Assembly: GCA_903882905.1 (NCBI GenBank) | Contig: CAIRYW010000004.1 | Span: forward strand, 115,117-172,205 | Direction of reading: 5' to 3' | Source of the DNA: an uncultured bacterium | GTDB lineage: Bacteria; Patescibacteriota; Minisyncoccia; Phycocordibacterales; CAIRYW01 | Length of the DNA stretch: 57,089 nt | Shown here: positions 12,532-57,088 of the stretch, piece by piece | How the letters are laid out: each line of letters begins with the position of its first letter | Numbering within the stretch: the stretch's first letter is position 1 | Position numbers and translations under genes: made by a program | The notes under the pieces: model-generated | What the model was told of the DNA's origin: nothing | The model's database searches: none | The model's input: only the letters and a program-made list of their open reading frames with translations

Positions 12532-12720
12532 TTTTTGAACGCAGTGAAAAACTGCGGGAAAGAAGCAAATAATTTTGCTTCTTTCATGGACTCGAAGCCC
12601 GATTGAGATAATTTATGAGGGACGAAATAAATTATCCAATTGCGGGTATTGAAGCTGTAAGCTTCGAGATTCCAAGTCCAGTATGAAAATTTTTAGTCGA
12701 GGAAGAGACTCCAAGTCCTA
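12525..12720 (+). repeat. tRNA-Gln 3' hairpin plus variant tRNA-linked element with T-arm-complementary and T-arm-like segments
   Basis: Hairpin cccgcagttttt/aaaaactgcggg starts inside the acceptor 3' strand. ggactcgaa (rc of T-loop ttcgagtcc) lies at 12588-12596. An 18-bp hairpin spans 12598-12646. Partial tRNA 3' copies are cttcgagattccaagtcc (12662-12679) and gactccaagtcc (12707-12718). Confidence 0.45.
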
Positions 12721-12798
12721 TAAAATTTTTATAAAAAATGCGATACCCTATTCGAGTATCGCTGTTAACGAACATTTACTTTGCAGAGACAGAGCGGG

Positions 12799-14736
12799 TC
12801 AGATTACACCCGCTTTTTGCAGCCTTGCTGCGAGCTTGACCATGACTCCGACGCTTCCGCCGTTTCGGATCTGTTCCTTCTGATGATCGGAGAGTTCGAA
12901 TTTCCAACCACAATCCTCACCGGCCCACTTCACTGCACCGTTTTCCCAGTCGATATTGACCGACCGCAGTTTCGAAGCAAAGAGGACGTTGATATGATTT
13001 TTTGGCATAACCACACAGAGCAGGCCGTTCGCGAACATGCTGTTGTAGAAGATGCGAGCAAAACTCGGTGCGATGACGCACCGAATGCCCGCGCCCTCAA
13101 GCGCCCAAGGCGCGTGTTCGCGTGAAGAGCCTGTGCCGAAGTTTTCTCCCGCCACTAGAATTTGGGAGCTGAAGAGCTTCGGTTTATCCTCCGGCGAAAC
13201 CGAAGAATCTTCCAAGCAGTGCTTACCGAACTCCGACTTCCTGGTCTCGTTCAGATACTTGGCTGGAATGATTTGGTCAGTGTCCACATTGGCATCTGGC
13301 AGGTAAAAAACGCTGCCTGAAAAATCCTTCACCTCGCCAACACTAAAAAGATGAAGAAGATTGCTGTAGTCAGGTTTTTGCGAAGGGATATCCTTCCAGT
13401 CACTACCGCAGGTTTGACCCCACGACGACACGCCGCCGATTTCATCAGCAACGTCCTTGCAAAGGCTGACTGATGGTTCCGATACCACTCCGTTGATCGC
13501 GGTATAGGCCGCAGTCGCAGGAGACACCAAATGAACCATACCGCTTTCGCCCATGCGTCCCGGGAAGTTTCGGTTTGTCGTCGAAACGCAAACCTCCCCC
13601 GGAGCGATGACACCGCAACTCATCCCAAGACAGGCCCCGCAATTCGGACCACTCACGAAACACCCCGCCTTGACGAAGGTTTCGAGGAGTCCTCTTTTGA
13701 GAGCCATCTCGTAGATATGCTGGGTAGCTGGAACAACAATGCAGCGGACACCGTCCGCAACCTTGCCGCCCTTCAGACGAAATACTGCTTCCGCGATGCG
13801 CAAATCTTCCAACCGGCCGTTTGTGCACGAACCGATGTAAACCTGATCGACGGGCTTTCCCGCCATTTTCGAAACAGGAACAACATCGCCCGGAGAATAG
13901 TTGTCAGTGATGACCGGAACCATTTCCGAAACGTCGATCTCGACCACCTGGTCATAAACCGCGCCTTCATCACTGTTCCAACGTTTCCAGTCGATGTTTT
14001 GATTCGGGGACAAGGATTTCATGTAATTGATCGTGGTTTGATCCACCATCATCATCCCCGACGTTGCACCTGCCTCGACTGCCATGTTGCTGATTGGCAT
14101 CCGAGCTTCCATGCTCATACCTTCGATGACTGAGCCACCGAATTCGAGCACTGCGTTGGCGGCACCTTTCACGCCGATTCTGTTGATCAAGGTGAGGATG
14201 AGGTCCTTCGAATAAACGTTTGCCGGCAGGGTGCCAACGAAATTTACGCGAATGACTTTTTGGGGAGGACAAATCCAAAGCCCGGTAATGATACCGTTCT
14301 CGAGGTCTGTTGTGCCAACCCCTGCCGCCAGAGCGCAGAAAGCGCCGTGTGTGCAAGTATGACTGTCTCCCATAATTCCCACCTCACCTGGACGAATCCA
14401 GCCCTTTTCTGGAATGATCGCATGGCAAATTCCGTTGCGTCCGACGTCGAGGAACTCGATTCCGTGTTTCTTACTCCAGTCACGGATGATTTTTCCTTGA
14501 ACCGCCGATGCCGTGTCTTTGGCCGGGTTGACATGATCGATCATGGCTTTGATTTTGTTAGGATCGAAAACTACGTCGACCCCGCGACCTTGTGCGTCGA
14601 GAATTGCGTTGGGAGTGGTGATTTCGTGGCACCAAACCCTGTCCAATCCGAGAACCACACCGCCGTCCGGCATGACCATTTTGCAATGGCTGTCGAGAAT
14701 TTTCTGAAACGCTGTTTTTGGATTTTTTTCTTTCAT
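12799..14736 (-). CDS. Aconitase-family dehydratase, fused LeuC-like large plus LeuD-like small subunit (3-isopropylmalate/homoaconitate dehydratase-like)
   Basis: 645 aa. GDSHTCTHGAF, GSCTNGRLEDL and STTNRNFPGRMG (Fe-S ligand regions), then the swivel domain GENFGTGSSREHAPWAL. The DNA is conspicuously GC-rich relative to the rest of the window. Confidence 0.85.
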   Translation of the reverse strand: MKEKNPKTAFQKILDSHCKMVMPDGGVVLGLDRVWCHEITTPNAILDAQGRGVDVVFDPNKIKAMIDHVNPAKDTASAVQGKIIRDWSKKHGIEFLDVGRNGICHAIIPEKGWIRPGEVGIMGDSHTCTHGAFCALAAGVGTTDLENGIITGLWICPPQKVIRVNFVGTLPANVYSKDLILTLINRIGVKGAANAVLEFGGSVIEGMSMEARMPISNMAVEAGATSGMMMVDQTTINYMKSLSPNQNIDWKRWNSDEGAVYDQVVEIDVSEMVPVITDNYSPGDVVPVSKMAGKPVDQVYIGSCTNGRLEDLRIAEAVFRLKGGKVADGVRCIVVPATQHIYEMALKRGLLETFVKAGCFVSGPNCGACLGMSCGVIAPGEVCVSTTNRNFPGRMGESGMVHLVSPATAAYTAINGVVSEPSVSLCKDVADEIGGVSSWGQTCGSDWKDIPSQKPDYSNLLHLFSVGEVKDFSGSVFYLPDANVDTDQIIPAKYLNETRKSEFGKHCLEDSSVSPEDKPKLFSSQILVAGENFGTGSSREHAPWALEGAGIRCVIAPSFARIFYNSMFANGLLCVVMPKNHINVLFASKLRSVNIDWENGAVKWAGEDCGWKFELSDHQKEQIRNGGSVGVMVKLAARLQKAGVI

Positions 14737-29957: not shown

Positions 29958-30044
29958 GCCCAGGTGGCGGAATTGGTAGACGCAATAGACTCAAAATCTA
30001 TCGATCGCAAGGTCATGGGAGTTCGATTCTCCCCTTGGGCACCA
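29958..30044 (+). tRNA. tRNA-Leu (anticodon CAA), CCA encoded
   Basis: Hand-folded. Acceptor gcccagg/cttgggc, anticodon arm ataga-ctCAAaa-tctat, long variable arm, T-arm gggag-ttcgatt-ctccc, ending ACCA. Confidence 0.9.
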
Positions 30045-30180
30045 TAATAAAAAGCTGGTATATTAATACCAGCTTTTTATTATGGTTTCGGGAGAATCGA
30101 AAGACGGAGCACGACTGGCGCGAGTCGGGGTCGCAGAAATTTTCAGCAGAAAATTATCTGTGACCGATTCCCTCCTGGAC
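30041..30180 (+). ncRNA. tRNA-3'-linked structured element, A-type (hairpin + three-way-junction domain)
   Basis: Hairpin 30041-30086. Then gggagaatcgaa / core AGACGGAGCACGACTGGCGCGAGTCGGGGTCGCAG / AT hairpin / CTGTGAC / cgattccc(tcctggac). The core is shared with 3 other copies, with compensatory changes. Confidence 0.5.
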
Positions 30181-30211
30181 TTATGACTCTATTTATATTT
30201 ATATAGTAATA

Positions 30212-31034: not shown

Positions 31035-31109
31035 TGGCGGGCTCGCCGCGACTCGAACGCGGAACCTTCCTTTTGGAGAGGAATGTTTTACCATTGAAAC
31101 TACAAGCCC
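31035..31109 (-). tRNA. tRNA-Trp (anticodon CCA), CCA encoded
   Basis: rc folds as acceptor gggcttg/cgagccc, anticodon arm ttcct-ctCCAaa-aggaa, T-arm ccgcg-ttcgagt-cgcgg. The 3' end lies 1 nt from the miaA stop. Confidence 0.9.
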
Positions 31110-31756
31110 TTTTTAAACAACGATTTAGCTACTGCTAAAAGTTTTTTTGAATATTCACTTTTATAGTATCTTACTCTAACACAACCTCGGTACCCAGCTT
31201 TCGAATATAAACCTTTATTTTTTTTATGAAAGGTTTTATGAAATTGGGATGCAGGTATTCTAAGTGTCTTTGACCAAAATTTCAACTCGTCAACCTCATT
31301 ATGATAAGAATGCAAATGCATACTGGCTCTCCATCCACTATCATCCAAATTAAAAATTTTCTTACATCCTTCAACAAAATAACTAAGAAGTCCTGGATCA
31401 GAATTTGTAAAAGAGATACCAGACATTTCATCCTTCGCTCCTTCGCAATAATAAATTAATGCAATTGCTAATAGTAAAGATTCATTTGAAAATTTATAGT
31501 CTTTGACAAGATTATCAGCAAATAAATTAGTTTCTGTTCTACGTTTTTCTCTTAATTTCGCCATTACCAACCTTCCTTTTTCAAGACCCTTTTTACCTTT
31601 TATTTTCAATAAAAATTTAGCGTCAAAATCTAATTCAACATTCCTAACCCAAAGTGAAGCAGTGCTTTTTGCAATATTTAAACTTTTACTTATTTCTAAA
31701 AGTGATAAACCTTCCGTTCTTAGCTTAATTGCCTTTTGCTTTAAATCAGGCTTCAT
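31100..31756 (-). CDS. HTH protein with possible LAGLIDADG-like endonuclease-type C-terminal domain
   Basis: 218 aa. N-terminal HTH (LSLLEISKSLNIAKSTASLWV). LAIALIYYCEGAKD weakly resembles a LAGLIDADG block. The last 3 codons overlap the 5' end of tRNA-Trp. Confidence 0.35.
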   Translation of the reverse strand: MKPDLKQKAIKLRTEGLSLLEISKSLNIAKSTASLWVRNVELDFDAKFLLKIKGKKGLEKGRLVMAKLREKRRTETNLFADNLVKDYKFSNESLLLAIALIYYCEGAKDEMSGISFTNSDPGLLSYFVEGCKKIFNLDDSGWRASMHLHSYHNEVDELKFWSKTLRIPASQFHKTFHKKNKGLYSKAGYRGCVRVRYYKSEYSKKLLAVAKSLFKKGL

Positions 31757-32080: not shown

Positions 32081-32166
32081 GCGCCGATCGCATAGTGGCA
32101 ATTGCAGCGGGCTGTAAACTCGCCGACCTATGGTCTACGGGGGTTCGAGTCCCTCTCGGCGCACCA
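32081..32166 (+). tRNA. tRNA-Tyr (anticodon GTA), long variable arm, CCA encoded
   Basis: Acceptor gcgccga/tcggcgc, anticodon arm gcggg-ctGTAaa-ctcgc, T-arm ggggg-ttcgagt-ccctc, ACCA. Confidence 0.88.
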
Positions 32167-32342
32167 ATAAAAAATACCGGATTCAGTCCGGTATTTTTTA
32201 TTGCCTGTGCTGTTCGAGAGGGACACGAAAGCCGGAGTGCGACGGCGCGAGGCGGGATCGCGAGATTTTTCAACAGAAAAATACTTGTGACCGAGTCCCT
32301 TAAAAAGGTACTGACCCTGTAAGGGTCGAGATTCCATCTCAG
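32165..32342 (+). ncRNA. tRNA-3'-linked structured element, A-type + B-type domains
   Basis: Hairpin 32165-32203. cgagagggacacgaa (rc of the tRNA-Tyr T-arm). A core AGCCGGAGTGCGACGGCGCGAGGCGGGATCGCGAG...CTTGTGAC-cgagtccct. B part cctt-aaa-aagg GTACTGA ccc-tgtaa-ggg tcgagattccatctc. Confidence 0.5.
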
Positions 32343-39924: not shown

Positions 39925-39946
39925 AATAGCTTTCAGCTATTTGTTC

Positions 39947-40030
39947 GCCCGAGTGATGAAATTGGTATACATAGAGGACTTAAAATTCTCAGGCCTAAAG
40001 GCCGTGTGGGTTCGACTCCCACCTCGGGCA
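39947..40030 (+). tRNA. tRNA-Leu (anticodon TAA)
   Basis: Acceptor gcccgag/ctcgggc, anticodon arm gagga-ctTAAaa-ttctc, long variable arm, T-arm gtggg-ttcgact-cccac. No encoded CCA (ACCC). Confidence 0.88.
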
Positions 40031-40208
40031 CCCATATTAAAAGCCGTCTTTAAAGACGGCTTTTAATATGGGTTGTGGGAGTCGAAGGTCGGAGCGCGTC
40101 GGCGCGAGACGGGGTCGCGCAAAATTTTAGCAAAAATTTATGCGTGACCGATTCCCTTTTACAAAATATCCAAAAGGTGTACTGATCCTGTAAGGGTCGA
40201 GTTCCCAC
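40031..40208 (+). ncRNA. tRNA-3'-linked structured element, A-type + B-type domains
   Basis: Hairpin 40031-40072. gtgggagtcgaa (exact rc of the tRNA T-loop + 3' T-stem). A core GGTCGGAGCGCGTCGGCGCGAGACGGGGTCGCGC...GCGTGAC-cgattccc. B part cctttt...aaaagg TGTACTGA tcc-tgtaa-ggg tcgagttcccac. Confidence 0.5.
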
Positions 40209-40240
40209 CTGTAATTTGATATAATTAACAAATCAAAATT

Positions 40241-43357: not shown

Positions 43358-44373
43358 TATCTAAATCTTTTTGCCCAAGCAATAGCTTTATACCAAAATT
43401 TACTTTTGATCATATCAAGAAGCTCAGCGTGTCTAATAGTTTCCCCACCAAATTTTTTCTTAAAGGTTGTGATACCTTGCCATGAGCCATCTTTTTCCTT
43501 TGCCTCTTCAATTCCACCAAAATTATAAAATTTCATCTCATCTTTTTTAGCTCTAAGAATTCCTGCCCAATGAGCCATATATGGTCCACACAGGTTCTTT
43601 TTTTCATCAGAAGTACCTCCAAAAAGATAATAAGCAGTATTTCCAAATACTACAATAAGGTGAGCAGCTAAAAAGTCTTCTTGATGTTTTGCTAGAACTA
43701 AATAACCTCCTTTATTTACAGTTATGTATTCAAAAATGTTTTCATAATATTTTTTAGAATGAAGTGAAAAATGATTTCGGCTTGCAGTCAAAACCATCAG
43801 TGAATAAAAGACATCAAAATATTTCATAAAATTCTCATCCTCAATAATTATTTCGACTCCCTTTTTTTCAGCAAGTTTAATTGAGTACCTTGTTTTTTCA
43901 TGCATTTTTGCCAAAAGTTCTTTGGAGTTTTTTTCAACATTTAATGTCCATTCAAATCTAGGTTGAATTGGTGACATAAACTTTAATTTCGGAAGTGGCT
44001 GCGCCAAATTTGGCGGAAAAAAACTATTTGCTTTATCAAAAGGAGTCGCATCAATACGTAAAAAAACTCCACCTTTTTCGTCTAAAATTTTTTGGCAAAT
44101 CTCAGAAAAAAAATCATTAAGCCCATTTTGATTTTTTACAATCACAGGTCCATATGGAGCGTACCAAATATATTTACCAAACGGCAATTTATATTTTATA
44201 AACTGACAAAAAAGTACAGGTTTGCCTGAAAAATCAACTCTTATCCTAAAGACCTCATCGCCGTTTTTTTCCTGCCATTCTCCATAACTAAAGGATTGGG
44301 TCAAAGGAGCTCCTACAACGAGTGATTCCAAATCCCAATGAATCTTATTTTTTACTTCTTTGGCCTCGAACAT
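43357..44373 (-). CDS. FemAB-family peptidoglycan aminoacyltransferase (FemX-like)
   Basis: 338 aa. PLTQSFSYGEWQEKNG, duplicated GNAT-like halves, LFGGTSDE. Confidence 0.7.
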   Translation of the reverse strand: MFEAKEVKNKIHWDLESLVVGAPLTQSFSYGEWQEKNGDEVFRIRVDFSGKPVLFCQFIKYKLPFGKYIWYAPYGPVIVKNQNGLNDFFSEICQKILDEKGGVFLRIDATPFDKANSFFPPNLAQPLPKLKFMSPIQPRFEWTLNVEKNSKELLAKMHEKTRYSIKLAEKKGVEIIIEDENFMKYFDVFYSLMVLTASRNHFSLHSKKYYENIFEYITVNKGGYLVLAKHQEDFLAAHLIVVFGNTAYYLFGGTSDEKKNLCGPYMAHWAGILRAKKDEMKFYNFGGIEEAKEKDGSWQGITTFKKKFGGETIRHAELLDMIKSKFWYKAIAWAKRFR

Positions 44374-44479
44374 AAATGAGATTATAACATAGGGTTACTT
44401 CTTGTTTGGAATAATTGCTTTGATTTATTTAACTTTTCTGGTATATTTTTGTAATTCAATTGAGAATTTGAAGATATAT

Positions 44480-44552
44480 CCACCCATAGCTCAGTCGGTA
44501 GAGCAGCTCCCTTTTAAGGAGAGGGTCGTAGGTTCGATTCCTACTGGGTGGA
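44480..44552 (+). tRNA. tRNA-Lys (anticodon TTT)
   Basis: Acceptor ccaccca/tgggtgg, D-arm gctc-agtcggta-gagc, anticodon loop ctTTTaa, T-arm gtagg-ttcgatt-cctac. No encoded CCA. Confidence 0.85.
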
Positions 44553-44588
44553 CAATTTAACAGCGAAGCTGGTAAATTATCCGCCCAA

Positions 44589-44724
44589 GCAAGTGCTACT
44601 AGCACTTGCGAGTAGGAATCGAACGCCTCCGCTATATTTTTTCAGCAGAAAAAATAGCGAGGCGCGTTTTGAGAAATTTTTTTGACGAAAAAAAATTTCT
44701 CAAAAAGATACTCCTACTGGGTTG
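44589..44724 (+). ncRNA. tRNA-3'-linked structured element, variant (after tRNA-Lys)
   Basis: Hairpin gcaagtgct/agcacttgc. gtaggaatcgaac (exact rc of the tRNA-Lys T-arm). Hairpin gcctccgctatatttttt-cagcag-aaaaaatagcgaggc. Hairpin ttttgagaaattttttt-gacg-aaaaaaaatttctcaaaa. Then ctcctactgggt (copy of the tRNA 3' end). Confidence 0.45.
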
Positions 44725-44761
44725 ATTTGAATTTCGTCGAAAAAATTTGCGATTATGAATC

Positions 44762-44843
44762 GGGCGAGTGGCGGAATTGGTATACGCGCTAGTCTTAGGA
44801 ACTAGTTCCGAAAGGATTGGGGGTTCGAGTCCCCCCTCGCCCA
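44762..44843 (+). tRNA. tRNA-Leu (anticodon TAG)
   Basis: Acceptor gggcgag/ctcgccc, anticodon arm ctagt-ctTAGga-actag, variable arm, T-arm ggggg-ttcgagt-ccccc. No encoded CCA. Confidence 0.88.
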
Positions 44844-45013
44844 CATTTAAAAAAAACGCTTTTGAGCGTTTTTTTTGTGGTCGAGAGAAACTGCCGGGTG
44901 GCAGTTTCGTGGGGAACTCGAAAACCTTTTGAGATTTTTCTAAAAGAAAATCCAAAAGGTGTACTGACCCTGTAGGGGTCGAGATTCCCCCTTCACCTGT
45001 GAACATCGTGAAC
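44841..45013 (+). ncRNA. tRNA-3'-linked structured element, B-type with leader hairpin
   Basis: Hairpin 44841-44880. Leader hairpin gaaactgcc-gggt-ggcagtttc. ggggaactcgaa / ccttttg...caaaagg / TGTACTGA / ccc-tgta-ggg / tcgagattccccc. Tail cacctgtgaacatcgtgaac. Confidence 0.5.
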
Positions 45014-45032
45014 TTTGTAGTAAACTTTTGGT

Positions 45033-46220
45033 ATGAAAGAACCAATGAAATTTGAACTTCCACCAGATGACGATAATGGTCAGGTGGAACAAGTCTCTGA
45101 AGCAAACAGAAGCCATAAAATTGAGACACCAAGCATCGAAGGACATAATAAAATTCAGTATGCAATGCTTACTGAATTGCGAGCCAAATATCCATACGAA
45201 AACTTATTAAGTGAAGAAAGACTTTTTAGAACTAGAAATACAAGTAGATACTATACTCAAATAAATGAAAAATTAGCTCAACAGAGATATGAAAACGCCC
45301 TGTCGTGTGGAGCGGAAATCCATTCTACTTTTATAGAATTTGGTGACAAAATTAAAGATAGCGATTGGATTAATTGTCTTAAAAATTACCCAATGAATGG
45401 TATTAATAGGATTTTCGATAAAAACGAAACTCCTTTTGCTGGTTTCTTTGATGAGAATCGAATTATGGAAGCTGAAAGTCTAATGAGTCCTTATTCATAC
45501 TTCTTAGAGGGTCAATTTGGTAGAGCTGTAGAATTTAAACCAGATATAGTAGCAGTGACACCTAAAAGTGGGATTATGCCATCAATAATCGTAAAACAGT
45601 TTTTCAGGACATATTCTGAGGAAACTGGAGATAATATAGATCCACAGTTTTTTATACCTCAAAGTAAATTTTTTAGTGGTTTCAAGAGTACAGATAATGG
45701 GAGAAAATATATCAAAGATATTCTCTCAACAAATCTAGGTTCTATAGAAGATTATCAGAAATATCTGGAAAATAGCGGAGAGATTTTGACTGGTAAATCA
45801 GTATCAGAAAAAGATCTAGCTAAAATCCAAAGATATAAGAAAACTTTTGAAGCTATTAAAAATATTATTATTTCCCATACAGAAGAAAAAGAAATAAAAG
45901 TATTAGTTTTTGACGAAGTAATTAATGAAGGAAAATCCTCAAAAGGAATGCAAGAACTTTTTGAAGTAATACTAGATATTTTAAAAGAAGGTGGTGAAAT
46001 CCCCAAAGACACCGTCATCAAGTCTCAAGTTTTAACAATGGGAAGTTTAGGAACTTCTTATAATTCTCCTGGTAAGGATTTTATTATGGACGAAGGTGGA
46101 AATAACTACAATTACGGATTAAAAGGTAGTTCAAAAGCAAAACATCATTTGACGCGCAAAGTATTTAAAATAATAGGCGAGAGTTTGGCAAAAGAGTTTA
46201 TTCTTGTCAGAAATTCTTAA
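45033..46220 (+). CDS. Hypothetical 395-aa protein with weak phosphoribosyltransferase-like motif
   Basis: Long ORF starting 20 nt after the element. KVLVFDEVINEGKSS loosely resembles the PRTase PRPP loop. Otherwise unknown. Confidence 0.55.
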   Translation: MKEPMKFELPPDDDNGQVEQVSEANRSHKIETPSIEGHNKIQYAMLTELRAKYPYENLLSEERLFRTRNTSRYYTQINEKLAQQRYENALSCGAEIHSTFIEFGDKIKDSDWINCLKNYPMNGINRIFDKNETPFAGFFDENRIMEAESLMSPYSYFLEGQFGRAVEFKPDIVAVTPKSGIMPSIIVKQFFRTYSEETGDNIDPQFFIPQSKFFSGFKSTDNGRKYIKDILSTNLGSIEDYQKYLENSGEILTGKSVSEKDLAKIQRYKKTFEAIKNIIISHTEEKEIKVLVFDEVINEGKSSKGMQELFEVILDILKEGGEIPKDTVIKSQVLTMGSLGTSYNSPGKDFIMDEGGNNYNYGLKGSSKAKHHLTRKVFKIIGESLAKEFILVRNS

Positions 46221-46311
46221 TCAGTATGTATAGCTCTTCAATAGCCTTTTTGATTTAATCTCCCTCATTTACAATTCAACACCTCCAACTCCCCTATACT
46301 TATTTTCACAT

Positions 46312-46540
46312 CATCAGCATACCTAACTAGTTCTGAAAGCCAGCCCATCTGTCCACATTAAAAAAACACCCTCTGGGTGTTTTTTGTTGGGCGGGGAGAA
46401 ACTGCTGGATGGCAGTTTCGCGGGGGACTCGAAAACCTTTTGAGATTATTTTGTGAGTTAGCGAAACAAAATATCCAAAAGGTGTACTGCTCCTGTAAGG
46501 AGAGAGATTTTCCTCTCGCCCACCTGTGAACGTTGTGAAT
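46312..46540 (+). ncRNA. Decayed tRNA-Leu-like 3' remnant (R1) + hairpin + B-type structured element
   Basis: R1 shares aactagttcYgaaag and gYccaca with tRNA-Leu(TAG). Hairpin 46353-46390. Leader hairpin gaaactgc/gcagtttc. gggggactcgaa (exact rc of the tRNA-Leu(TAG) T-arm). ccttttg...caaaagg, TGTACTG, ctcc-tgtaa-ggag, then ttttcctctcgcccac and cacctgtgaacgttgtgaa. Confidence 0.5.
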
Positions 46541-46631
46541 GTTATTACGATATAACAGACTACTTGACTAGAAATAATTTTAGTGTTTATATTGAACCTG
46601 AACAATTTACCTCTTTGAAAGGTCTAATTTT

Positions 46632-46805
46632 ATGACACAACACATCGTAATTGGAATACTCCTTTGTTGGACTATTCTGGGTTTAATCATTGACCCTCTG
46701 TTGCTTGGCAGTTCCTGGATAACTTCTTCACGGACGCGCGAAGTTGCAGTGCTAATACTTGGAGGACCAGTAACTTGGTTCCTTGCATTTGCTCAATGGT
46801 TTTAA
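46632..46805 (+). CDS. Small membrane protein (57 aa)
   Basis: Below the ORF-track cutoff. My translation is MTQHIVIGILLCWTILGLIIDPLLLGSSWITSSRTREVAVLILGGPVTWFLAFAQWF, with two hydrophobic helices. gaaagg lies 12 nt upstream. Confidence 0.4.
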   Translation: MTQHIVIGILLCWTILGLIIDPLLLGSSWITSSRTREVAVLILGGPVTWFLAFAQWF

Positions 46806-46908
46806 AACAAGACAACTCTAAAGTTCGACCTCGTTGCTTACGCGATGAGGTCATTTTTATAACAGACAAGTTTTAATATTTTCTAAATCTTTTATACTAA
46901 TTCTTACC

Positions 46909-47167
46909 GCATCAGCATACCCAACAAGTTCTGAAAGCCAGCCCAACGGTCCACATTAAAAAAACACCCTCTGGGTGTTTTTTTTGTGAGCGAGGAGAAA
47001 GCTCTGGGAGAGCTTTCGTGGGGACTCGAAGGCCGGAGCGCGACGGCGCGAGGCGGGCGAGTAGCAACGAGTGTCGGAGTAGGCTTCGCAGAAATTTTTA
47101 CCACAAGGGTACTTCTGTTTTTTGTAAACAAAAACAAGTCGCGCAAAAAATTATCTGTGACCGAGTC
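46909..47167 (+). ncRNA. Decayed tRNA-Leu-like 3' remnant (R2) + hairpin + A-type structured element (expanded)
   Basis: R2 is about 90% identical to R1 over about 45 nt. Hairpin 46951-46988. Leader hairpin gaaagctc/gagctttc (compensated relative to the other copies). ggggactcgaa + GGCCGGAGCGCGACGGCGCGAGGCGGG core with extra internal hairpins, ending CTGTGAC-cgagtc. Confidence 0.5.
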
Positions 47168-47207
47168 TTTTTTTGCAAAATTTATTTAGGACTGGATTAT
47201 TTTTCAC

Positions 47208-47241
47208 CCTGTGGATAAACACCTATAGGTCGGTCCTTGGG
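47208..47241 (+). repeat. 34-nt direct repeat copy 1 containing a perfect DnaA box (tgtggataa) and palindrome ataggtcggtcc
   Basis: cctgtggataaacacctataggtcggtccttggg is identical to 48325-48358. Confidence 0.8.
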
Positions 47242-47247
47242 TATTTT

Positions 47248-48126
47248 TTATTTCTCCGCTACAACTGAAAGCCCCATAACGTTAACTCCTTGTACATTTA
47301 TTTTTTTGCTGACTTGTGTGACAACTATACTAGATGTAATAGCTGCATTTGTTCGAGTGATACTGAAACTACCTCCATCAAAACCAAGTGTAGAGGTAAT
47401 AGCAAGTGGCTGGTTTGAATAATTAAGCATACTGATAGGCTGACCTCCAAGTTGCTCTATAGTTTTTTTATTACCATTCACAATTGCCCAAGAATTAATA
47501 AAGGATACTGTACCAAAATTATCTAGAGGTACAAACGCATTTGTGCTATTACTAAATGGCATTTCTTGAATCCATTCCGCTGAAGACATTGAGGATACAT
47601 AGTAGACAGAAGTCTTGTAATTCTGATTTGTCGTAACATTATTAAATGAAATAATCCACGAATTTGCTGACTGCTCTAATATTGAAACCGTAATTGAATC
47701 TCCGGGTTTAATTGCTATAGGAATAATTACTGGGACACTTGGAAGAATTTCATACCATGCTTTATATGTAAAATTTGTTTCTGTTTTATTCAAACCTGTA
47801 TTGTCTGTTAAAGCATGAGTACCTACTTGTATGAGATCGGTTTTACCCATACCACTAATCCCAACCCATGTAGCATCAGCTGAATAAACAGTACTAGTGG
47901 CTTTGGGTACTATCCAACTCGCACCAATTCCGCTATATGAACCAGCCGCAGAGCTAACATACCCAGACCAATTACGCGAAGTAATTGCATTAACGTTTGC
48001 AAACGTTATACACGGGACAGCATATAAAGTAAAAAAGATAAACATAGAACTGAGAAAAAACACAACTCCCAGTGGAGTTTTTTTTGAATTTTTTTGATTA
48101 AATTTTTGTGAGTTGGCAAACAACAT
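47248..48126 (-). CDS. Secreted glutamic peptidase, G1 (eqolisin/scytalidoglutamic)-like
   Basis: 292 aa with a signal peptide. NWSGYV...GASWIVP...ATWVGISG...IQVGT...YKAWYEILP...SAEWIQE matches the G1-family block order (catalytic Q/E context). Confidence 0.55.
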   Translation of the reverse strand: MLFANSQKFNQKNSKKTPLGVVFFLSSMFIFFTLYAVPCITFANVNAITSRNWSGYVSSAAGSYSGIGASWIVPKATSTVYSADATWVGISGMGKTDLIQVGTHALTDNTGLNKTETNFTYKAWYEILPSVPVIIPIAIKPGDSITVSILEQSANSWIISFNNVTTNQNYKTSVYYVSSMSSAEWIQEMPFSNSTNAFVPLDNFGTVSFINSWAIVNGNKKTIEQLGGQPISMLNYSNQPLAITSTLGFDGGSFSITRTNAAITSSIVVTQVSKKINVQGVNVMGLSVVAEK

Positions 48127-48224
48127 AACTTTCCGTATCTGGGATTATAGCAGTAATATTTATTTACATTACAGTGTAAATGTGGTGAAATGAAGATTTT
48201 CTAAATCCCTAGATGCACTTTCAC

Positions 48225-48317
48225 AGCATTAGCATACCCAACAAGTTCTGAAAACTAGCCCAACTGCCCACACATAAAAAATACTTTACAAATTTGTAAA
48301 GTATTTTTTATGTGTGG
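48225..48317 (+). repeat. Decayed tRNA-Leu-like remnant (R3) + long A/T hairpin, without downstream structured domain
   Basis: cagcattagcatacccaacaagttctgaaaactagcccaactgcccaca aligns with R1/R2. Hairpin ccacacataaaaaatactttaca/tgtaaagtattttttatgtgtgg. Confidence 0.5.
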
Positions 48318-48324
48318 ACCAAAA

Positions 48325-48358
48325 CCTGTGGATAAACACCTATAGGTCGGTCCTTGGG
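48325..48358 (+). repeat. 34-nt direct repeat copy 2 containing a perfect DnaA box
   Basis: Identical to 47208-47241. Confidence 0.8.
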
Positions 48359-48370
48359 GTTTCAGTTATT

Positions 48371-48682
48371 CTAATTTCCAATTACGGTCTGAACAGCTTG
48401 TTCGGTCTTTTGGTCTGCATTCAAACCAAATGAATTAACAATTATCTTCATGATCGTAAAAGTCGAAATCATTATCATCATTCCAACAAATCCCCAAAGC
48501 ATATGCATAGTTCCTTTTGCTCTTACCTCTTGATCATCAGCATGGACAATATAGTCTTTAACTCCCCAAAGAAAACCAACCAAAGCAAAAGCGAACATCA
48601 AAATAATCAAAGGATTAACAATCAAAGCATTCGCTTTAAGAATGATTGAATCGAAAGATACAGCCGATGCAAGTTGATCCAT
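48371..48682 (-). CDS. VirB2/TrbC-like (T4SS-pilin-like) two-TM mini-protein, paralogue 7
   Basis: 103 aa. Core FALVGFLWGVKDYIVHADDQEVRAKGTMHMLWGFVGMMIMI has the same helix / charged loop / helix pattern as the six ORFs upstream. Confidence 0.5.
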   Translation of the reverse strand: MDQLASAVSFDSIILKANALIVNPLIILMFAFALVGFLWGVKDYIVHADDQEVRAKGTMHMLWGFVGMMIMISTFTIMKIIVNSFGLNADQKTEQAVQTVIGN

Positions 48683-48700
48683 TTTTGAGTTTTCGAGAGA

Positions 48701-49045
48701 TTAAATTGTTGGTCCGTGAACCGGTGATGTAACGTCTGTTCCGTTGAAGAATGTTGTATTGAGAATTCTTACAAAACCCCAAACAGCTGTCATAACAAAG
48801 ATGATGATAATTCCGTAAATAATAATTCCTCTTGCAGCTGCTTTTTTCTCTTCATCTGCACCTGCTGTAACATACTGAACCAAACCCCAAAGAAATACCA
48901 AAACAGCAATACCGATAACAAGTGGGATTATTGAGTTGATAAGATCTCTAATTGATAGAATCGCATTCTGTGCATTGTTAAAATTTTGTGCAAATGCAAG
49001 TAATGGACCCAATACGACAACACCTGAAATTAATACTTTTTTCAT
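48701..49045 (-). CDS. VirB2/TrbC-like two-TM mini-protein, paralogue 6
   Basis: 114 aa. Signal peptide, then VLVFLWGLVQYVTAGADEEKKAAARGIIIYGIIIIFVMTAVWG. Confidence 0.55.
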   Translation of the reverse strand: MKKVLISGVVVLGPLLAFAQNFNNAQNAILSIRDLINSIIPLVIGIAVLVFLWGLVQYVTAGADEEKKAAARGIIIYGIIIIFVMTAVWGFVRILNTTFFNGTDVTSPVHGPTI

Positions 49046-49235
49046 TTTTATAATTTTGCGAAATTATGTCGCGCAATCGTCTTTATGACGCGACGCTTAT
49101 TTTAATAATTAAATTGACCTTATTAATTTGTTTGTCCCTGACAAACCCTTTAATTTACTTAAATTGTAGCACAAACCCATCTTAAAAGTGCAAGATAAAA
49201 GTGGAAAACATAACCAAACAAAATCCACACAGGTA

Positions 49236-49622
49236 TTATTGGAATACGTTTGCACAAGAACTTGTGTTAATAGGGTTTGTACCCGAGCTTTTGAATTGAG
49301 GAATACCAAAACTTACATTAAAAGTCGAAGTAAAAATTCTTAATACTCCCCAAATTCCAACAATAACGAAAAAACCGATCATTCCGTAAATCATAAATTT
49401 GGTACCCTCACTTCTTTTTTCTTCATTATCTCCAGCAGAAACATACTTTATAAGTCCTCTAAGAAATTCTACAAAAGCAATCAATATTATTATAGGGACA
49501 AGATCTAGGGCTAGACAAATAATAATATTTACTAAACCAGCAAAACTTGTTGGCGCTGTTAATGCAAAAGCAAAAACTGGTGGTGTTAGTGTTAAAACAA
49601 AAATATAAATGAATTTTTTCAT
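49236..49622 (-). CDS. VirB2/TrbC-like two-TM mini-protein, paralogue 5
   Basis: 128 aa. Signal peptide, then FVEFLRGLIKYVSAGDNEEKRSEGTKFMIYGMIGFFVIVGIWG. Confidence 0.55.
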   Translation of the reverse strand: MKKFIYIFVLTLTPPVFAFALTAPTSFAGLVNIIICLALDLVPIIILIAFVEFLRGLIKYVSAGDNEEKRSEGTKFMIYGMIGFFVIVGIWGVLRIFTSTFNVSFGIPQFKSSGTNPINTSSCANVFQ

Positions 49623-49630
49623 CGTTTTGT

Positions 49631-50014
49631 TTAATTTGGTGTAATTGTTGTTGGTAATTGAGTTGGCAAGTAAACAGCTCCATCAAAAAAAGAACTGTAC
49701 AAAAGTTTTACAATCCCCCAAACACTTATCATTACAAAAAGTACAATAATTCCAAAAATCATTACGTTCCTGCCAGATAATCTCGCTTCTTCATTGTCAC
49801 CTGCTCCAACAAATCTCACAACTCCAATTAAAAATATAACTAATGCAATAGATATAAGAAAAGGAACATATGACTGCATTTTAAATTGAATGTAGCAACT
49901 AAGTAGAGTATGCAGATCACTTGGAGTTGTACTGCAATCATTTGTTGCCGCAAAAACTGGCACAGAAACAAACCATAGACTAGTCGACAATAAAATATTT
50001 AATATTTTTTTCAT
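49631..50014 (-). CDS. VirB2/TrbC-like two-TM mini-protein, paralogue 4
   Basis: 127 aa. Signal peptide, then VIFLIGVVRFVGAGDNEEARLSGRNVMIFGIIVLFVMISVWG. Confidence 0.55.
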   Translation of the reverse strand: MKKILNILLSTSLWFVSVPVFAATNDCSTTPSDLHTLLSCYIQFKMQSYVPFLISIALVIFLIGVVRFVGAGDNEEARLSGRNVMIFGIIVLFVMISVWGIVKLLYSSFFDGAVYLPTQLPTTITPN

Positions 50015-50016
50015 TT

Positions 50017-50475
50017 TTATGGATTTGTTGTTGCAGATGGAGGTAATGATGGCATTGTGTAATCAAATCCAAAGGTCGTACTAAGTATTTTTACGATTCC
50101 CCAAACCGAAACCATCACGAAAATTGCAATTATTCCATATATCATCATATTTCTACTTGCTTCTCTTTGTTCTTCATTATCACCAGAAGAAACATATTGA
50201 ACAACTCCAATTAGAAACAATAAAACTCCAAGCCCGATAACAAACGGAATTATACTGCTGCTGATGACACATCTTGCGTAATCAAAAAGTTTAGGGATGT
50301 CTTTTGGTGCAATACAGGTTGTTGCTGCGTTTGATGATGAAGTGCCAGCATTAGCACCAACTACCGCTCCAGTTACTGCTCCGTCGGCCTTTGCCAGATT
50401 AGGGAAATAAAGGCAAACTACAAAAGACAAAACTATAAATAAAGGAATTATTTTTTTGACTTTTATTTTTGACAT
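50017..50475 (-). CDS. VirB2/TrbC-like two-TM mini-protein, paralogue 3
   Basis: 152 aa. Signal peptide, then LLFLIGVVQYVSSGDNEEQREASRNMMIYGIIAIFVMVSVWG. Confidence 0.55.
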   Translation of the reverse strand: MSKIKVKKIIPLFIVLSFVVCLYFPNLAKADGAVTGAVVGANAGTSSSNAATTCIAPKDIPKLFDYARCVISSSIIPFVIGLGVLLFLIGVVQYVSSGDNEEQREASRNMMIYGIIAIFVMVSVWGIVKILSTTFGFDYTMPSLPPSATTNP

Positions 50476-50508
50476 TTTTTTTAAAAATATTAAATTTACA
50501 AATAAATT

Positions 50509-50883
50509 TTAACTAATAACTCCCCCGACTGTATTTACAACTGCTGTAATTATAACTTGCGCACCAATGAGCACTGCTGTTCCAACCAAAGCCCAAGTAA
50601 CAGTTGTTTTAGCTTTCTTGAGCTTTTCTTCATCTCCTTGAGCGGTTGCATAAAGATATCCTCCATACATTATTGAAAGTGCTCCAACAATTGCACCAAT
50701 TTCAGTAGCGGCAGTAATTATTGATTTCAGAAATTCTGGAATACTATTTGCACTTACAGGATTTTGCAGACCATTTGTTGAACCTATTGCTTGTCCGGTA
50801 ATTCCACCAAAAACAACCACAGCAATAACGAAAAATGTTACAACAAAAAAATAATTTTTACTCTTCTTTAATATGTTTTTCAT
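50509..50883 (-). CDS. VirB2/TrbC-like two-TM mini-protein, paralogue 2 (divergent)
   Basis: 124 aa. SIMYGGYLYATAQGDEEKLKKAKTTVTWALVGTAVLIG. Overlaps the next ORF by 4 nt. Confidence 0.5.
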   Translation of the reverse strand: MKNILKKSKNYFFVVTFFVIAVVVFGGITGQAIGSTNGLQNPVSANSIPEFLKSIITAATEIGAIVGALSIMYGGYLYATAQGDEEKLKKAKTTVTWALVGTAVLIGAQVIITAVVNTVGGVIS

Positions 50884-57050: not shown

Positions 57051-57088
57051 AGGACCGACCTATGGCACTTTATCCACACTGTGGATAA
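57051..57088. promoter_or_regulatory. Two perfect, convergent DnaA boxes plus the ggaccgacctat palindrome; possible edge of oriC/dnaA control region
   Basis: ttatccaca (57070-57078) and tgtggataa (57080-57088) are separated by 1 nt. They are preceded by aggaccgacctat with the same 6-nt spacing as in the 34-nt repeat, and by a long A/T-only tract (about 57008-57050). Confidence 0.5.

What the first reader, a model, noticed from the sequence alone, without database searches (positions are those of the whole stretch)
44480..48360. Cassette-like accessory array anchored on tRNA-Lys/tRNA-Leu(TAG), delimited by decayed tRNA-Leu 3' remnants
The order along the region is:
1. tRNA-Lys, then an element.
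2. tRNA-Leu(TAG), then an element, then a 395-aa orphan.
3. R1, a hairpin and an element, then a 57-aa membrane ORF.
4. R2, a hairpin and an element.
5. A 34-nt repeat, the G1 peptidase gene (opposite strand), R3 with a hairpin, and the second 34-nt repeat.

R1-R3 (about 46312, 46909 and 48225) are mutually similar. They retain aactagttcYgaaag (anticodon-stem 3' strand + variable arm of tRNA-Leu(TAG)) and the gYccaca end, but lack a T-arm.

The elements after R1/R2 still carry the exact complement of the tRNA-Leu(TAG) T-arm (gggggactcgaa), and R1's element ends with cctctcgcccac, the tRNA's 3' end.

This looks like serial insertion at one tRNA gene, each event leaving a remnant plus one small cargo gene. 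No recombinase gene is visible in the window.
Basis: partly seen in the sequence, partly recalled or inferred. Interest (0 to 1): 0.75.

Follow-up and report, generated by a model that had tools for sequence, protein, structure and literature searches.

The report
tRNA-tail-mimicking elements framing accessory genes
A 3.5-kb run of accessory genes beside a leucine tRNA gene of a Patescibacteria (CPR) bacterium is punctuated by copies of a small structured element, apparently undescribed, that follows most tRNA genes in these bacteria and carries arms copied from the tRNA's own 3' end.

Summary

**What holds up**
- The closest relative (L121) has tRNA-Lys, tRNA-Leu(TAG), one hairpin plus element, then the pilin genes.
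- So window 44998-48360 and the tRNA-Lys element are extra DNA.
- A second relative (L122) has different cargo at the same spot.

**What does not**
- The "elements" are not insertion scars.
- Six of the window's eight tRNAs are followed by one.
- Four window copies (three after tRNAs, one after R2) carry an invariant core, CGGAGCGCGNCGGCGCGAG plus a long hairpin.
- 135 distinct copies of that core turned up in Patescibacteria MAGs.
- The core shows strong RNA covariation and matches no Rfam family.
- When a copy sits behind a tRNA it is co-oriented with it.
- Its 3' arm is a direct repeat of the tRNA starting exactly at C56 (perfect 18/18 in 27 copies).
- Its 5' arm is the reverse complement running outward from T54.
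- Filled and empty orthologous sites show that it is an insertion.

**R1-R3**
These are local, degenerate copies of the tRNA-Leu 3' half and are found nowhere else.

**Still open**
No recombinase or reverse transcriptase was found, so the insertion mechanism is inferred, not shown.

The parts
44480..44553 (+). tRNA-Lys(UUU); ARAGORN labels it tRNA-Stop(tta)
   Evidence: Rfam tRNA, 69.9 bits. The L122 orthologue is called Lys(ttt).
44579..44727 (+). Element E_Lys. Acceptor-like outer stem, hairpin, complement of the tRNA-Lys T-arm (AGTAGGAATCGAAC, 44611-44624), two apical hairpins, and a 3' arm TCCTACTGGGTTGA (44712-44725). Absent from relative L121.
   Evidence: I14, D17; MFE -63.7 kcal/mol, z = -9.3. 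Empty site: where window 44580-44761 corresponds to 5 nt in L121.
44762..44844 (+). tRNA-Leu(TAG), the intact anchor gene
   Evidence: No differences from the L121 orthologue in alignment A1.
44845..45012 (+). Hairpin A (44845-44876), element E_a (44877-44999) and a conserved 19-mer tail. The 5' arm gtggtcgagag..ggggaactcgaa mirrors the tRNA-Leu 3' half. Apical hairpins B' and C are followed by the 3' arm gagattcccccttcacc.
   Evidence: D2, D3, D8; z = -5.3.
45033..46220 (+). ORF395, cargo gene 1. No Pfam hit and no homologue other than itself.
   Evidence: only itself among 5.8 billion clusters.
46284..46357 (+). R1, a degenerate tRNA-Leu(TAG) 3' half. It has the 15-mer aactagttctgaaag and ..gtccaca but no T-arm.
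   Evidence: (D1, D5). Neither ARAGORN nor Rfam calls a tRNA here.
46358..46539 (+). Hairpin B, element E_b and the 19-mer tail. The 5' arm holds GGGGGACTCGAA (46422), a 12/12 complement of the tRNA-Leu(TAG) T-arm. The 3' arm holds CTCGCCCAC (46515).
   Evidence: z = -4.9; B'/C part 89.7% identical to L121's single element.
46632..46805 (+). ORF57, cargo gene 2: a small hydrophobic peptide. An intrinsic terminator lies at 46827-46852.
46882..46955 (+). R2, second copy of the degenerate tRNA-Leu 3' half
46956..47207 (+). Hairpin B and element E_c. The 5' arm is 90.7% identical to L121's. It is followed by the conserved GC-rich core (from 47029), which here carries a roughly 60-nt internal insertion.
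   Evidence: (40.1 bits, E = 3.6e-10).
47208..47241 (.). 34-nt exact direct repeat, copy 1. It contains a 10-bp palindrome ACCTATAGGT and a DnaA-box 9-mer.
   Evidence: (D4).
47248..48126 (-). G1/A4-family peptidase, cargo gene 3
   Evidence: The closest homologues (64% and 63% identity) sit in unrelated contexts with no tRNA or core nearby.
48199..48317 (+). R3 (third, most diverged copy) and the perfect palindromic hairpin C (48268-48317). No element follows.
   Evidence: (D1, I1).
48325..48358 (.). 34-nt exact direct repeat, copy 2, 12 nt from the pilin gene stop
12533..12692 (+). Same kind of element after tRNA-Gln. 5' arm TGGACTCGAA at 12587; 3' arm TCCAAGTCC at 12671.
   Evidence: (z = -6.1).
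30045..30182 (+). Element after tRNA-Leu(CAA). Palindromic hairpin, 5' arm GGGAGAATCGAA (30090), conserved core at 30100-30182. It fills the tRNA-miaA gap, which is 4-25 nt in nine relatives.
   Evidence: (69.8 bits).
32167..32342 (+). Element after tRNA-Tyr. 5' arm CGAGAGGGAC (32215), core at 32228-32309, then hairpin C.
   Evidence: (78.2 bits).
40033..40210 (+). Element after tRNA-Leu(TAA). 5' arm GTGGGAGTCGAA (40075), core at 40085-40166, hairpin C, 3' arm TCCCACCT (40203).
   Evidence: (85.9 bits).

Best explanation
The locus has two layers.

**Layer 1: the 'elements'.** They are copies of a Patescibacteria-wide, non-autonomous insertion element.
- It lands just 3' of tRNA genes, in the tRNA's orientation.
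- Its conserved part is a structured RNA domain: a helix-closed internal loop CGGAG/AG around a CGCG-NCGG-CGCG hairpin, then a long hairpin with a bulged A and an AGCA loop. AT-rich hairpin modules B' and C can replace it or sit beside it.
- Its two arms are not conserved. They are copied from the host tRNA gene.
- The 3' arm is a direct repeat that starts exactly at T-loop C56 and runs to N73 plus 1-3 nt.
- The 5' arm is the reverse complement that starts at T54 and runs outward for a variable 4-18 nt.
- The folded element is therefore a tRNA-like acceptor/T-stem helix with the conserved domain in place of the T-loop.

**Inferred mechanism.** A nick in the T-loop at 55|56 on the bottom strand primes copying of the element from its precise 3' end (...GTGAC). 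The second junction is variable. That would give a fixed right junction, a variable-length target duplication and a variable left part. This is target-primed, SINE-like logic, and the enzyme is unknown.

**Layer 2: the array.** In this lineage the unit [tRNA-Leu(TAG) - hairpin - element] exists four times.
- The redundant tRNA copies have decayed to R1-R3.
- One accessory gene sits after each unit.
- The units act as portable repeats at a hot spot between tRNA-Leu and the pilin operon.
- The array probably grew by recombination or duplication between element copies.
- The exact 34-nt repeat marks the youngest event.

**Shown:** family membership, RNA covariation of the core, arm geometry, insertion polymorphism, and accessory status of the array.

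**Inferred:** the priming mechanism and the way cargo was captured.
For: **Window**
- 6 of 8 tRNAs are followed by an element whose 5' arm complements its own tRNA for 7-14 nt exactly, 10 or more in five of the six. Non-cognate maxima are 5-9 nt.
- Each of the seven window elements folded gives a tRNA-like multibranch fold, with z from -3.3 to -9.3.

**Core**
- 50-sequence alignment: 93.8% of cells are paired, against 72% when shuffled and 32-54% when slid.
- 17 of 22 pairs change on both sides.
- A conserved G:U pair (30 sequences) fixes the strand.
- The covariance model finds 4 copies in the window, all in these elements.

**Distribution**
- 135 distinct cores.
- All 99 loci of the class-T scan are Patescibacteria.
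- GC-rich non-CPR hits and viral hits match only the 19-mer.

**Geometry**
- Of 85 copies whose 5' arm ends in TCGAA, the nearest tRNA is upstream on the same strand in 62, absent in 22 and otherwise placed in 1.
- 27 copies have a perfect 18/18 repeat of C56-N73. The left edge is at C56 in 25 of 27. Repeat length is 19-23 nt, up to 35.
- The complement of variable position N59 is correct in 53 of 53.
- 16 tRNA amino-acid families are involved.

**Insertion polymorphism**
- E_Lys is absent in L121.
- tRNA-Leu(TAA) has no element in L122.
- The tRNA-Leu(CAA)-miaA gap is 4-25 nt in 9 relatives and 167 nt in the window.

**Array**
- The whole array is absent in L121, and L122 has different cargo.
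- Element copies are mosaic, 75-91% identical to L121's single copy.
- Degenerate tRNA remnants before elements also occur elsewhere: L177, L198, L215 and L170.
Against: - No nuclease, reverse transcriptase, integrase or transposase is in the window. None is enriched within 1.5 kb of 130+ copies.
- The left part of each insertion usually contains a terminator-like A-tract/hairpin/T-tract. That would limit read-through transcription of the element from the tRNA promoter.
- How a 5' arm matched to each of 16 tRNA families arises is not explained by a simple target-primed model.
- The invariant core across distant CPR lineages would also fit a host function.
- Polarity (gain in the window versus loss in L121) rests on two relatives, plus the miaA comparison for one other site.
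- No same-species polymorphism of the array was found.
- The R sequence was found nowhere else, so cassette mobility is unproven.
Confidence: 0.55

Rival explanations
1. Classical serial, integrase-mediated integration at tRNA-Leu(TAG). This would be tandem accretion of integrative elements or CIME-like modules. Each incoming circle carries an R-type att site that mimics the tRNA-Leu 3' half, recombines at or after the ..CCACA end, and brings one cargo gene plus its own hairpin and element.
For: - The order tRNA-hpA-E_a-ORF395-R1-hpB-E_b-ORF57-R2-hpB-E_c fits insertion of [hairpin-E-cargo-R] circles at the tRNA end.
- The hairpin after R1 and R2 is the type that follows the tRNA in L121.
- R1-R3 share derived features, as an element-borne att site would.
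- An exact 34-nt repeat with a central 10-bp palindrome flanks the peptidase/R3 module.
- The site is variable between relatives.
Against: - There is no integrase in 57 kb.
- R is absent from 185,579 species genomes and from the metagenome collection.
- The element copies are mosaic rather than showing a clean age gradient.
- The hairpin and element belong to a family found after many other tRNAs with no cargo.
- L122's cargo has no R-like boundary.
Confidence: 0.2
2. The elements are host-beneficial parts of tRNA transcription units, not mobile DNA. Examples would be 3' trailer RNAs that terminate, insulate or guide processing, or that act as tRNA-top-half mimics handled by RNase P, RNase Z or the CCA-adding enzyme. 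The array would then be an ordinary segmental duplication of the tRNA-Leu unit, followed by decay and unrelated gene gain.
For: - The core is invariant across distant Patescibacteria lineages and shows RNA-level covariation.
- Orientation is strict, and position is immediately 3' of tRNAs.
- The fold resembles a tRNA minihelix.
- Terminator-like hairpins are part of each unit.
- No mobility gene is linked.
Against: - Filled and empty orthologous sites exist.
- Many copies lie away from any tRNA, inside partial duplicates of other genes or in tandem or nested arrays.
- Fresh perfect 19-35-nt repeats occur in 27 species.
- The arms decay like neutral DNA. G:U-type and A:C-type mismatches are equally common, 8 vs 6 and 21 vs 27.
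Confidence: 0.2
3. Artefact: the repeats and their order result from misassembly of a repetitive metagenomic region, or from chance similarity.
For: Same-species contigs tend to break at the repeats. L138 ends inside E_c, L133 ends in the 34-nt repeat, and L134-L136 end in R3 or its hairpin.
Against: - Independent assemblies from several samples reproduce 43839-47145 and 47587-50714 at 99.9-100% identity.
- Shuffles give 0 chance matches.
- The same architecture is seen in relatives and in over 100 other genomes.
Confidence: 0.03

Closest known systems
tRNA-anchored genomic islets built by tandem accretion of integrative elements (ICE/IME/CIME accretion, as described for Streptococcus thermophilus; from my own knowledge)
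   Same: - The variable accessory genes lie directly 3' of a tRNA gene.
- Repeated tRNA-3'-half-like sequences separate the modules.
- Content differs between relatives at the same site.
   Different: - No integrase is present.
- The repeats (R1-R3) are degenerate and lack the T-arm.
- The cargo lies outside the exact tRNA/arm repeat.
- The module boundaries are copies of a separate, genome-wide structured element.
Integron cassette arrays (attC hairpin sites)
   Same: One small gene alternates with one structured, imperfectly palindromic boundary of about 250 nt. Boundary sequences are variable but share an architecture.
   Different: - There is no intI gene or attI site.
- The boundaries carry a conserved RNA-type core and tRNA-derived arms.
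- The same boundary element occurs singly after many tRNAs with no cassette.
SINEs and non-LTR retroelements inserted by target-primed reverse transcription, including tRNA-derived SINEs (eukaryotic; from my own knowledge)
   Same: - Non-autonomous and multi-copy.
- Precise 3' junction, with a variable 5' part and a variable-length target duplication (19-35 nt).
- Conserved 3'-proximal RNA structure.
- tRNA-like features.
   Different: - Bacterial.
- No reverse transcriptase has been identified.
- The target is the T-loop of tRNA genes.
- The element acquires an inverted copy of the target as well.
- There is no A-tail.
Bacterial MITEs and palindromic elements (Correia/NEMIS, RPE, REP/BIME)
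   Same: Short (100-250 nt), non-coding, hairpin-forming, dispersed in intergenic DNA, and polymorphic between relatives.
   Different: - There are no fixed terminal inverted repeats and no 2-10-bp target duplication.
- The arms are copy-specific and templated by the neighbouring tRNA.
- The core shows RNA covariation with a strand-specific G:U pair.
tRNA-adjacent or tRNA-mimicking RNAs: HDV-like 'theta' ribozymes downstream of phage tRNAs, tmRNA tRNA-like domain, YrlA, viral TLS, T-box
   Same: The element sits directly 3' of tRNAs, or mimics the acceptor/T-arm half of a tRNA.
   Different: - No Rfam model for any of these reaches even E = 10 on the elements.
- The conserved domain replaces the T-loop.
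- Each copy mimics its own neighbouring tRNA.

Membership tests
Integron cassette array | An intI tyrosine recombinase and attI site next to the array | tested here: not met
   Pfam scans of 47 window ORFs (every ORF of 90 aa or more judged likely to be a gene, plus ORF57) found no integrase or recombinase.
Integron cassette array | attC sites with R''/R' core sites (RYYYAAC ... GTTRRRY) bounding each cassette | not tested
   No dedicated attC search was run. By eye, the boundaries are R, hairpin and element units with tRNA-derived arms.
Integrase-mediated tRNA-integrated island, or tandem accretion (CIME-like) | An integrase gene in or next to the island | tested here: not met
   None in the 57-kb window. 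The rest of the genome was not available.
Integrase-mediated tRNA-integrated island, or tandem accretion (CIME-like) | A direct repeat of the tRNA 3' segment at the distal end of each inserted module | tested here: inconclusive
   - R1-R3 keep 13-15 of 15 nt of the anticodon-stem/variable-arm segment and the ..CCACA end, but lack the T-arm.
- The exact tRNA-derived repeats (arms) flank only the small element, not the cargo.
tRNA gene (for R1-R3) | Cloverleaf detectable by ARAGORN or the Rfam tRNA model | tested here: not met
   There is no call at R1-R3. The only shared structure is the terminal hairpin.
MITE | Family-wide terminal inverted repeats and a short fixed target duplication | tested here: not met
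   The arms differ from copy to copy and match the adjacent tRNA. Direct repeats are 19-35 nt.
Known RNA families (Rfam 15: HDV-like/theta and other ribozymes, T-box, tmRNA, group I/II introns, YrlA and others) | Covariance-model match | tested here: not met
   - Gathering-threshold scan of the window: only the 8 tRNAs.
- Scans at E up to 10 over 44400-48400 and 39930-40240: only far sub-threshold matches, mostly hairpin-like miRNA and sRNA models.
Target-primed (SINE-like) retroelement | Precise 3' junction with a variable 5' junction and a variable-length target duplication | tested here: met
   The right junction is at C56 in 25 of 27 copies. Duplications are 19-35 nt. The left part is variable.
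Target-primed (SINE-like) retroelement | A partner reverse transcriptase/endonuclease and an RNA intermediate | not testable with these tools
   No such gene is enriched near copies. Whole genomes and transcriptomes were not available.
The CPR core-element family defined here (model R1) | Invariant CGGAG-CGCG-NCGG-CGCG-AG closed by a covarying helix, plus the GGUCGC../..GUGACC stem with a bulged-A hairpin | tested here: met
   Window copies at 40085 (85.9 bits), 32228 (78.2), 30100 (69.8) and 47029 (40.1, with an insertion). E_a, E_b, E_Gln and E_Lys carry the alternative B'/C modules instead.

The most novel reading that the evidence does not exclude
Patescibacteria harbour a previously unrecognised class of mobile element. 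It is a roughly 80-nt structured RNA module that homes to the T-loop of tRNA genes. It is copied in from a nick at position 55|56. At each insertion it builds its own stem by templating both arms on the target tRNA's 3' end. This produces tRNA-top-half mimics behind most tRNA genes. Those mimics then act as portable recombination sites that nucleate small accessory-gene arrays. The partner enzyme, perhaps a reverse transcriptase/nuclease or a host repair activity, would be new.
Probability: 0.3. Interest if true: 0.85.

Novelty: new variant of a known kind. Interest (0 to 1): 0.7.

Why it matters
- CPR/Patescibacteria have tiny genomes and few recognised mobile elements. A conserved, structured element behind most tRNA genes would therefore be a major unannotated feature of these genomes.
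- It would also confound tRNA-island and att-site prediction, because its arms look like att repeats.
- The exact C56 boundary across 16 tRNA families points to a structure-specific DNA or RNA transaction at the tRNA T-loop. No known bacterial element explains this.
- The arrays show how such elements can seed hot spots for strain-specific genes (peptidase, membrane peptide, orphan protein) next to the type-IV-secretion-type pilin cluster (Pfam T4SS_pilin).
- The family is easy to test, by transcript mapping, ribozyme and processing assays, and population-level insertion polymorphism.

Tried and rejected
1. **Known RNA family.** Rfam at gathering and at E up to 10 gave nothing relevant.
2. **Literature.** Four full-text searches, including the core sequence itself, found no description.
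3. **R as a circulating att site or RNA gene.** There were no matches in species genomes or metagenomes. There is no conserved fold beyond the hairpin.
4. **Phage origin.** Viral-contig hits match only the GC-rich 19-mer.
5. **Linked enzyme.** Clustering 437 neighbouring ORFs gave only housekeeping genes syntenic with tRNAs, such as MiaA and IF-2. The L122 transposase is an ordinary rve-type IS.
6. **3' arm copied from mature, CCA-tailed tRNA** (retroplasmid-like). Rejected. After N73 most arms repeat the genomic 'CA', and only 5-6 show CCA.
7. **Arms kept paired at the RNA level.**
   - A first count (G:U 40 vs A:C 13) was biased by my helix rule.
   - Unbiased counts show no excess: 8 vs 6 and 21 vs 27.
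8. **Hammerhead, HDV, twister or k-turn readings of the core.** Inspection by eye did not fit the consensus of any of them.
9. **IS110 bridge-RNA idea.** Both arms map to the same target segment and there is no recombinase.
10. **Same-species contigs to find cassette presence/absence.** All were identical to the window.
11. **Stop-codon suppressor tRNA.** This is an ARAGORN register artefact.

Full report
**Context.**
- The window is about 35% GC and encodes housekeeping genes: purine synthesis, ClpB, IF-2, ParB, GyrA, Mur ligase and FemAB.
- It also has a cluster of T4SS-type pilins. The closest loci are Saccharibacteria/Patescibacteria MAGs.
- It holds eight tRNAs. At gathering thresholds Rfam finds nothing but these.

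**The observation.**
- In order, these are tRNA-Lys, an element, tRNA-Leu(TAG), hairpin, element and ORF395.
- Then come R1, hairpin, element and ORF57, followed by R2, hairpin and element.
- Last come the 34-nt repeat, the A4/G1 peptidase on the minus strand, R3 with a perfect 25+25 palindrome, and the second 34-nt repeat.
- R1, R2 and R3 form a 102-nt repeat family (100%, 86%, 67%).
- Small corrections are needed. The 15-mer is exact only in R1, and the T-arm complement after R2 is 11/12.
- ARAGORN labels tRNA-Lys as 'tRNA-Stop(tta)'. Shifting the anticodon-stem register by one gives Lys-UUU, and the L122 orthologue is called Lys.
- Independent same-species contigs reproduce the arrangement.

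**The elements are not specific to this array.**
- I read the flanks of the other tRNAs. tRNA-Gln, Leu-CAA, Tyr and Leu-TAA are each followed on the same strand by a hairpin and a 100-180-nt element.
- Each 5' part is the reverse complement of that tRNA's own T-loop and T-stem.
- Exact complements are 10 nt (Gln), 12 (Leu-CAA), 10 (Tyr), 12 (Leu-TAA) and 14 (Lys). They are 12 and 11 nt for the copies after R1 and R2.
- The copy after tRNA-Leu(TAG) has only 7 exact, or 11 of 12 with one mismatch. Non-cognate maxima are 5-10 nt.
- Each 3' end resembles the tRNA's T-stem 3' strand plus acceptor 3' strand.
- Only tRNA-Trp and tRNA-Cys lack an element.
- Each of the seven window elements I folded gives the same architecture: an acceptor-like outer stem, one hairpin, and an extended T-stem-like helix enclosing two hairpins. 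Z-scores run from -3.3 to -9.3.

**A conserved core, widespread in Patescibacteria.**
- Three window copies share CGGAGYGCGNCGGCGCGAG.
- Scanning one genome per species gave 120 or more loci. The AT-rich ones are Saccharibacteria, Paceibacterota/Parcubacteria, Nomurabacteria, Kaiserbacteria and similar lineages.
- A second scan with the TCGAAAG prefix gave 99 loci, all Patescibacteria. Together these are 135 distinct copies.
- GC-rich non-CPR hits match only the 19-mer, apart from one unclassified MAG at 51.8 bits and two weak hits. Viral hits also match only the 19-mer.
- I aligned 50 copies and tested one structure: a 2-bp helix closing CGGAG / CGCG-NCGG-CGCG / AG, then a 16-bp interrupted hairpin with a bulged A and an AGCA loop.
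  - 93.8% of cells are paired, against 72% in shuffles and 32-54% when partners are slid.
  - 17 of 22 pairs change on both sides.
  - A G:U pair conserved in 30 sequences would be C·A on the other strand.
- The core is therefore under RNA-level selection on the tRNA's strand.
- The covariance model finds four copies in the window: 30100, 32228, 40085 and 47029 (the last after R2, with a roughly 60-nt insertion). E_Lys gives a weak match.
- E_a, E_b, E_Gln and L121's element carry AT-rich modules B' and C instead. Hairpin C covaries (gaccc/gggtc versus gaagc/gcttc).
- No Rfam family matches even at E = 10. Four literature searches found no description.

**Geometry relative to tRNAs.**
- Of 85 copies whose 5' arm ends in TCGAA, the nearest tRNA is upstream and co-oriented in 62, absent in 22 and otherwise placed in 1.
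- Many of the 22 lie at a locus edge, or follow a degenerate tRNA remnant.
- Sixteen tRNA amino-acid families are involved.
- In 27 copies the sequence right after the core is a perfect 18/18 repeat of tRNA positions C56-N73.
  - The repeat starts exactly at C56 in 25 of 27.
  - It ends 1-3 nt past N73 in most, for a total of 19-23 nt, and reaches 35 nt at the longest.
- The 5' arm is complementary from T54 outward for a variable length. The complement of the variable T-loop position N59 is correct in 53 of 53, and the match decays towards the acceptor.
- Where the 3' arm differs from the tRNA, the 5' arm still matches the tRNA in 39 of 43 positions. This fits independent decay of two copies.
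- Mismatches in the arms show no excess of G:U over A:C (8 vs 6; 21 vs 27). The arms therefore behave as DNA copies that decay, unlike the core.
- The idea that the 3' arm derives from mature CCA-tailed tRNA was rejected.

**It is an insertion.**
- E_Lys is missing in L121. Window 44580-44761 corresponds to 5 nt there.
- tRNA-Leu(TAA) has no element in L122.
- Of 12 relatives with tRNA-Leu upstream of miaA, nine have a gap of only 4-25 nt. In the window the 167-nt gap is filled by the hairpin and element.
- The hairpin is therefore part of the inserted DNA.
- No mobility gene is enriched near copies, and none is in the window.

**The array.**
- L121 (FemAB 77% identical) reads tRNA-Lys, 33 nt, tRNA-Leu(TAG), hairpin B, one element, terminator, pilin genes.
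- That single hairpin plus element matches the window three times: 44762-44939 at 88% (a match that also covers the tRNA), 46353-46506 at 87%, and 46951-47030 at 91%.
- L122 (68%) has tRNA-Leu(TAG), hairpin, a core-type element, a perfect 17-nt repeat of the tRNA end, then an rve-type IS and two unknown genes before the pilins.
- The spot is therefore a hot spot, and window 44998-48360 is accessory.
- Aligned with the tRNA unit, R1-R3 look like tRNA-Leu 3' halves. They share the same 13-nt T-arm deletion and the same unrelated 5' sequence. So they derive from one degenerate copy that was then multiplied.
- R occurs nowhere else in the collections and has no conserved fold of its own.
- The element copies are mosaic. 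The 5' part of E_c is closest to L121's (90.7%), and the B'/C part of E_b is closest (89.7%). This indicates recombination between copies.
- ORF395 has no homologue anywhere except itself.
- The peptidase's nearest homologues (63-64% identity) lie in unrelated contexts.
- Degenerate or partial tRNA copies in front of elements also occur in other genomes: L170, L177, L198, L215.

**Mechanism.**
- Shown: the fixed right junction at C56, the variable-length duplication, the variable left part, the strict orientation, the conserved RNA structure next to the precise junction, and the polymorphism between relatives.
- Inferred: these traits fit a target-primed, SINE-like insertion from a nick in the T-loop. 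The inverted 5' arm would arise by fold-back or microhomology-primed copying at the palindromic TTCGAA.
- The enzyme is unknown, and a host-function reading of the core is not excluded.
- For the array, the repeated [tRNA or R, hairpin, element] units are the likeliest substrates for duplication and recombination that trapped one gene per unit.
- An integrase-driven accretion model remains possible, but it has no integrase and no external copy of R to support it.

**Verdict.**
- The more interesting result is the element family itself, which appears to be undescribed.

Noticed in passing
window 12799-14736 (-), with 12693-12780: - An aconitase-family gene has GC of 0.47-0.54 against a background of about 0.35. 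It lies right after tRNA-Gln and its element.
- This is another foreign-looking gene next to a tRNA/element unit.
- A second 3'-arm-like copy (gactccaagtcc, 12709-12720) follows the first.
   Followed up: partly
window 47210-47218, 48327-48335, 57070-57088: - There are four perfect DnaA-box 9-mers (TTATCCACA), against 0.64 expected.
- One lies inside each 34-nt repeat. An inverted pair lies at the very end of the window, so oriC may be nearby.
- L121 has the same 9-mer between its element and the pilin gene.
   Followed up: partly
window 44480-44553; L121 9841-9914: ARAGORN calls this tRNA 'tRNA-Stop (tta)'. Shifting the anticodon-stem register by one gives Lys(UUU), and the L122 orthologue is called Lys. 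Long ORFs read normally with code 11, so there is no sign of recoding.
   Followed up: yes
window 31100-31756 (-): A 218-aa protein next to tRNA-Trp has only an N-terminal HTH_23 / transposase-type HTH hit. It may be a transposase relic.
   Followed up: no
window 47058-47150: The core after R2 carries a roughly 60-nt insertion inside its long hairpin. L028 shows a similar internal insertion. Nested and tandem copies occur in L047, L077, L118, L163 and L213.
   Followed up: partly
window 30041-30087, 32163-32205, 40029-40071: The palindromic, terminator-like hairpins after tRNA-Leu(CAA), Tyr and Leu(TAA) extend into the tRNA's last 4 nt (ACCA...TGGT, ACCC...GGGT). The tRNA 3' end is therefore part of a long perfect inverted repeat.
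   Followed up: no
L116, L064, L087, L002 (core loci): - Some core copies are not behind tRNAs. They sit inside partial duplicates of the 5' part of a downstream tRNA or protein gene, or of 5S rRNA, next to the intact gene.
- Others (L029, L020) cap long perfect inverted repeats of unique sequence.
   Followed up: partly
L136 1-364 vs window >48855: One same-species contig diverges from the window inside the pilin gene cluster. This suggests strain variation among the tandem T4SS-pilin paralogues (48371-50475).
   Followed up: no
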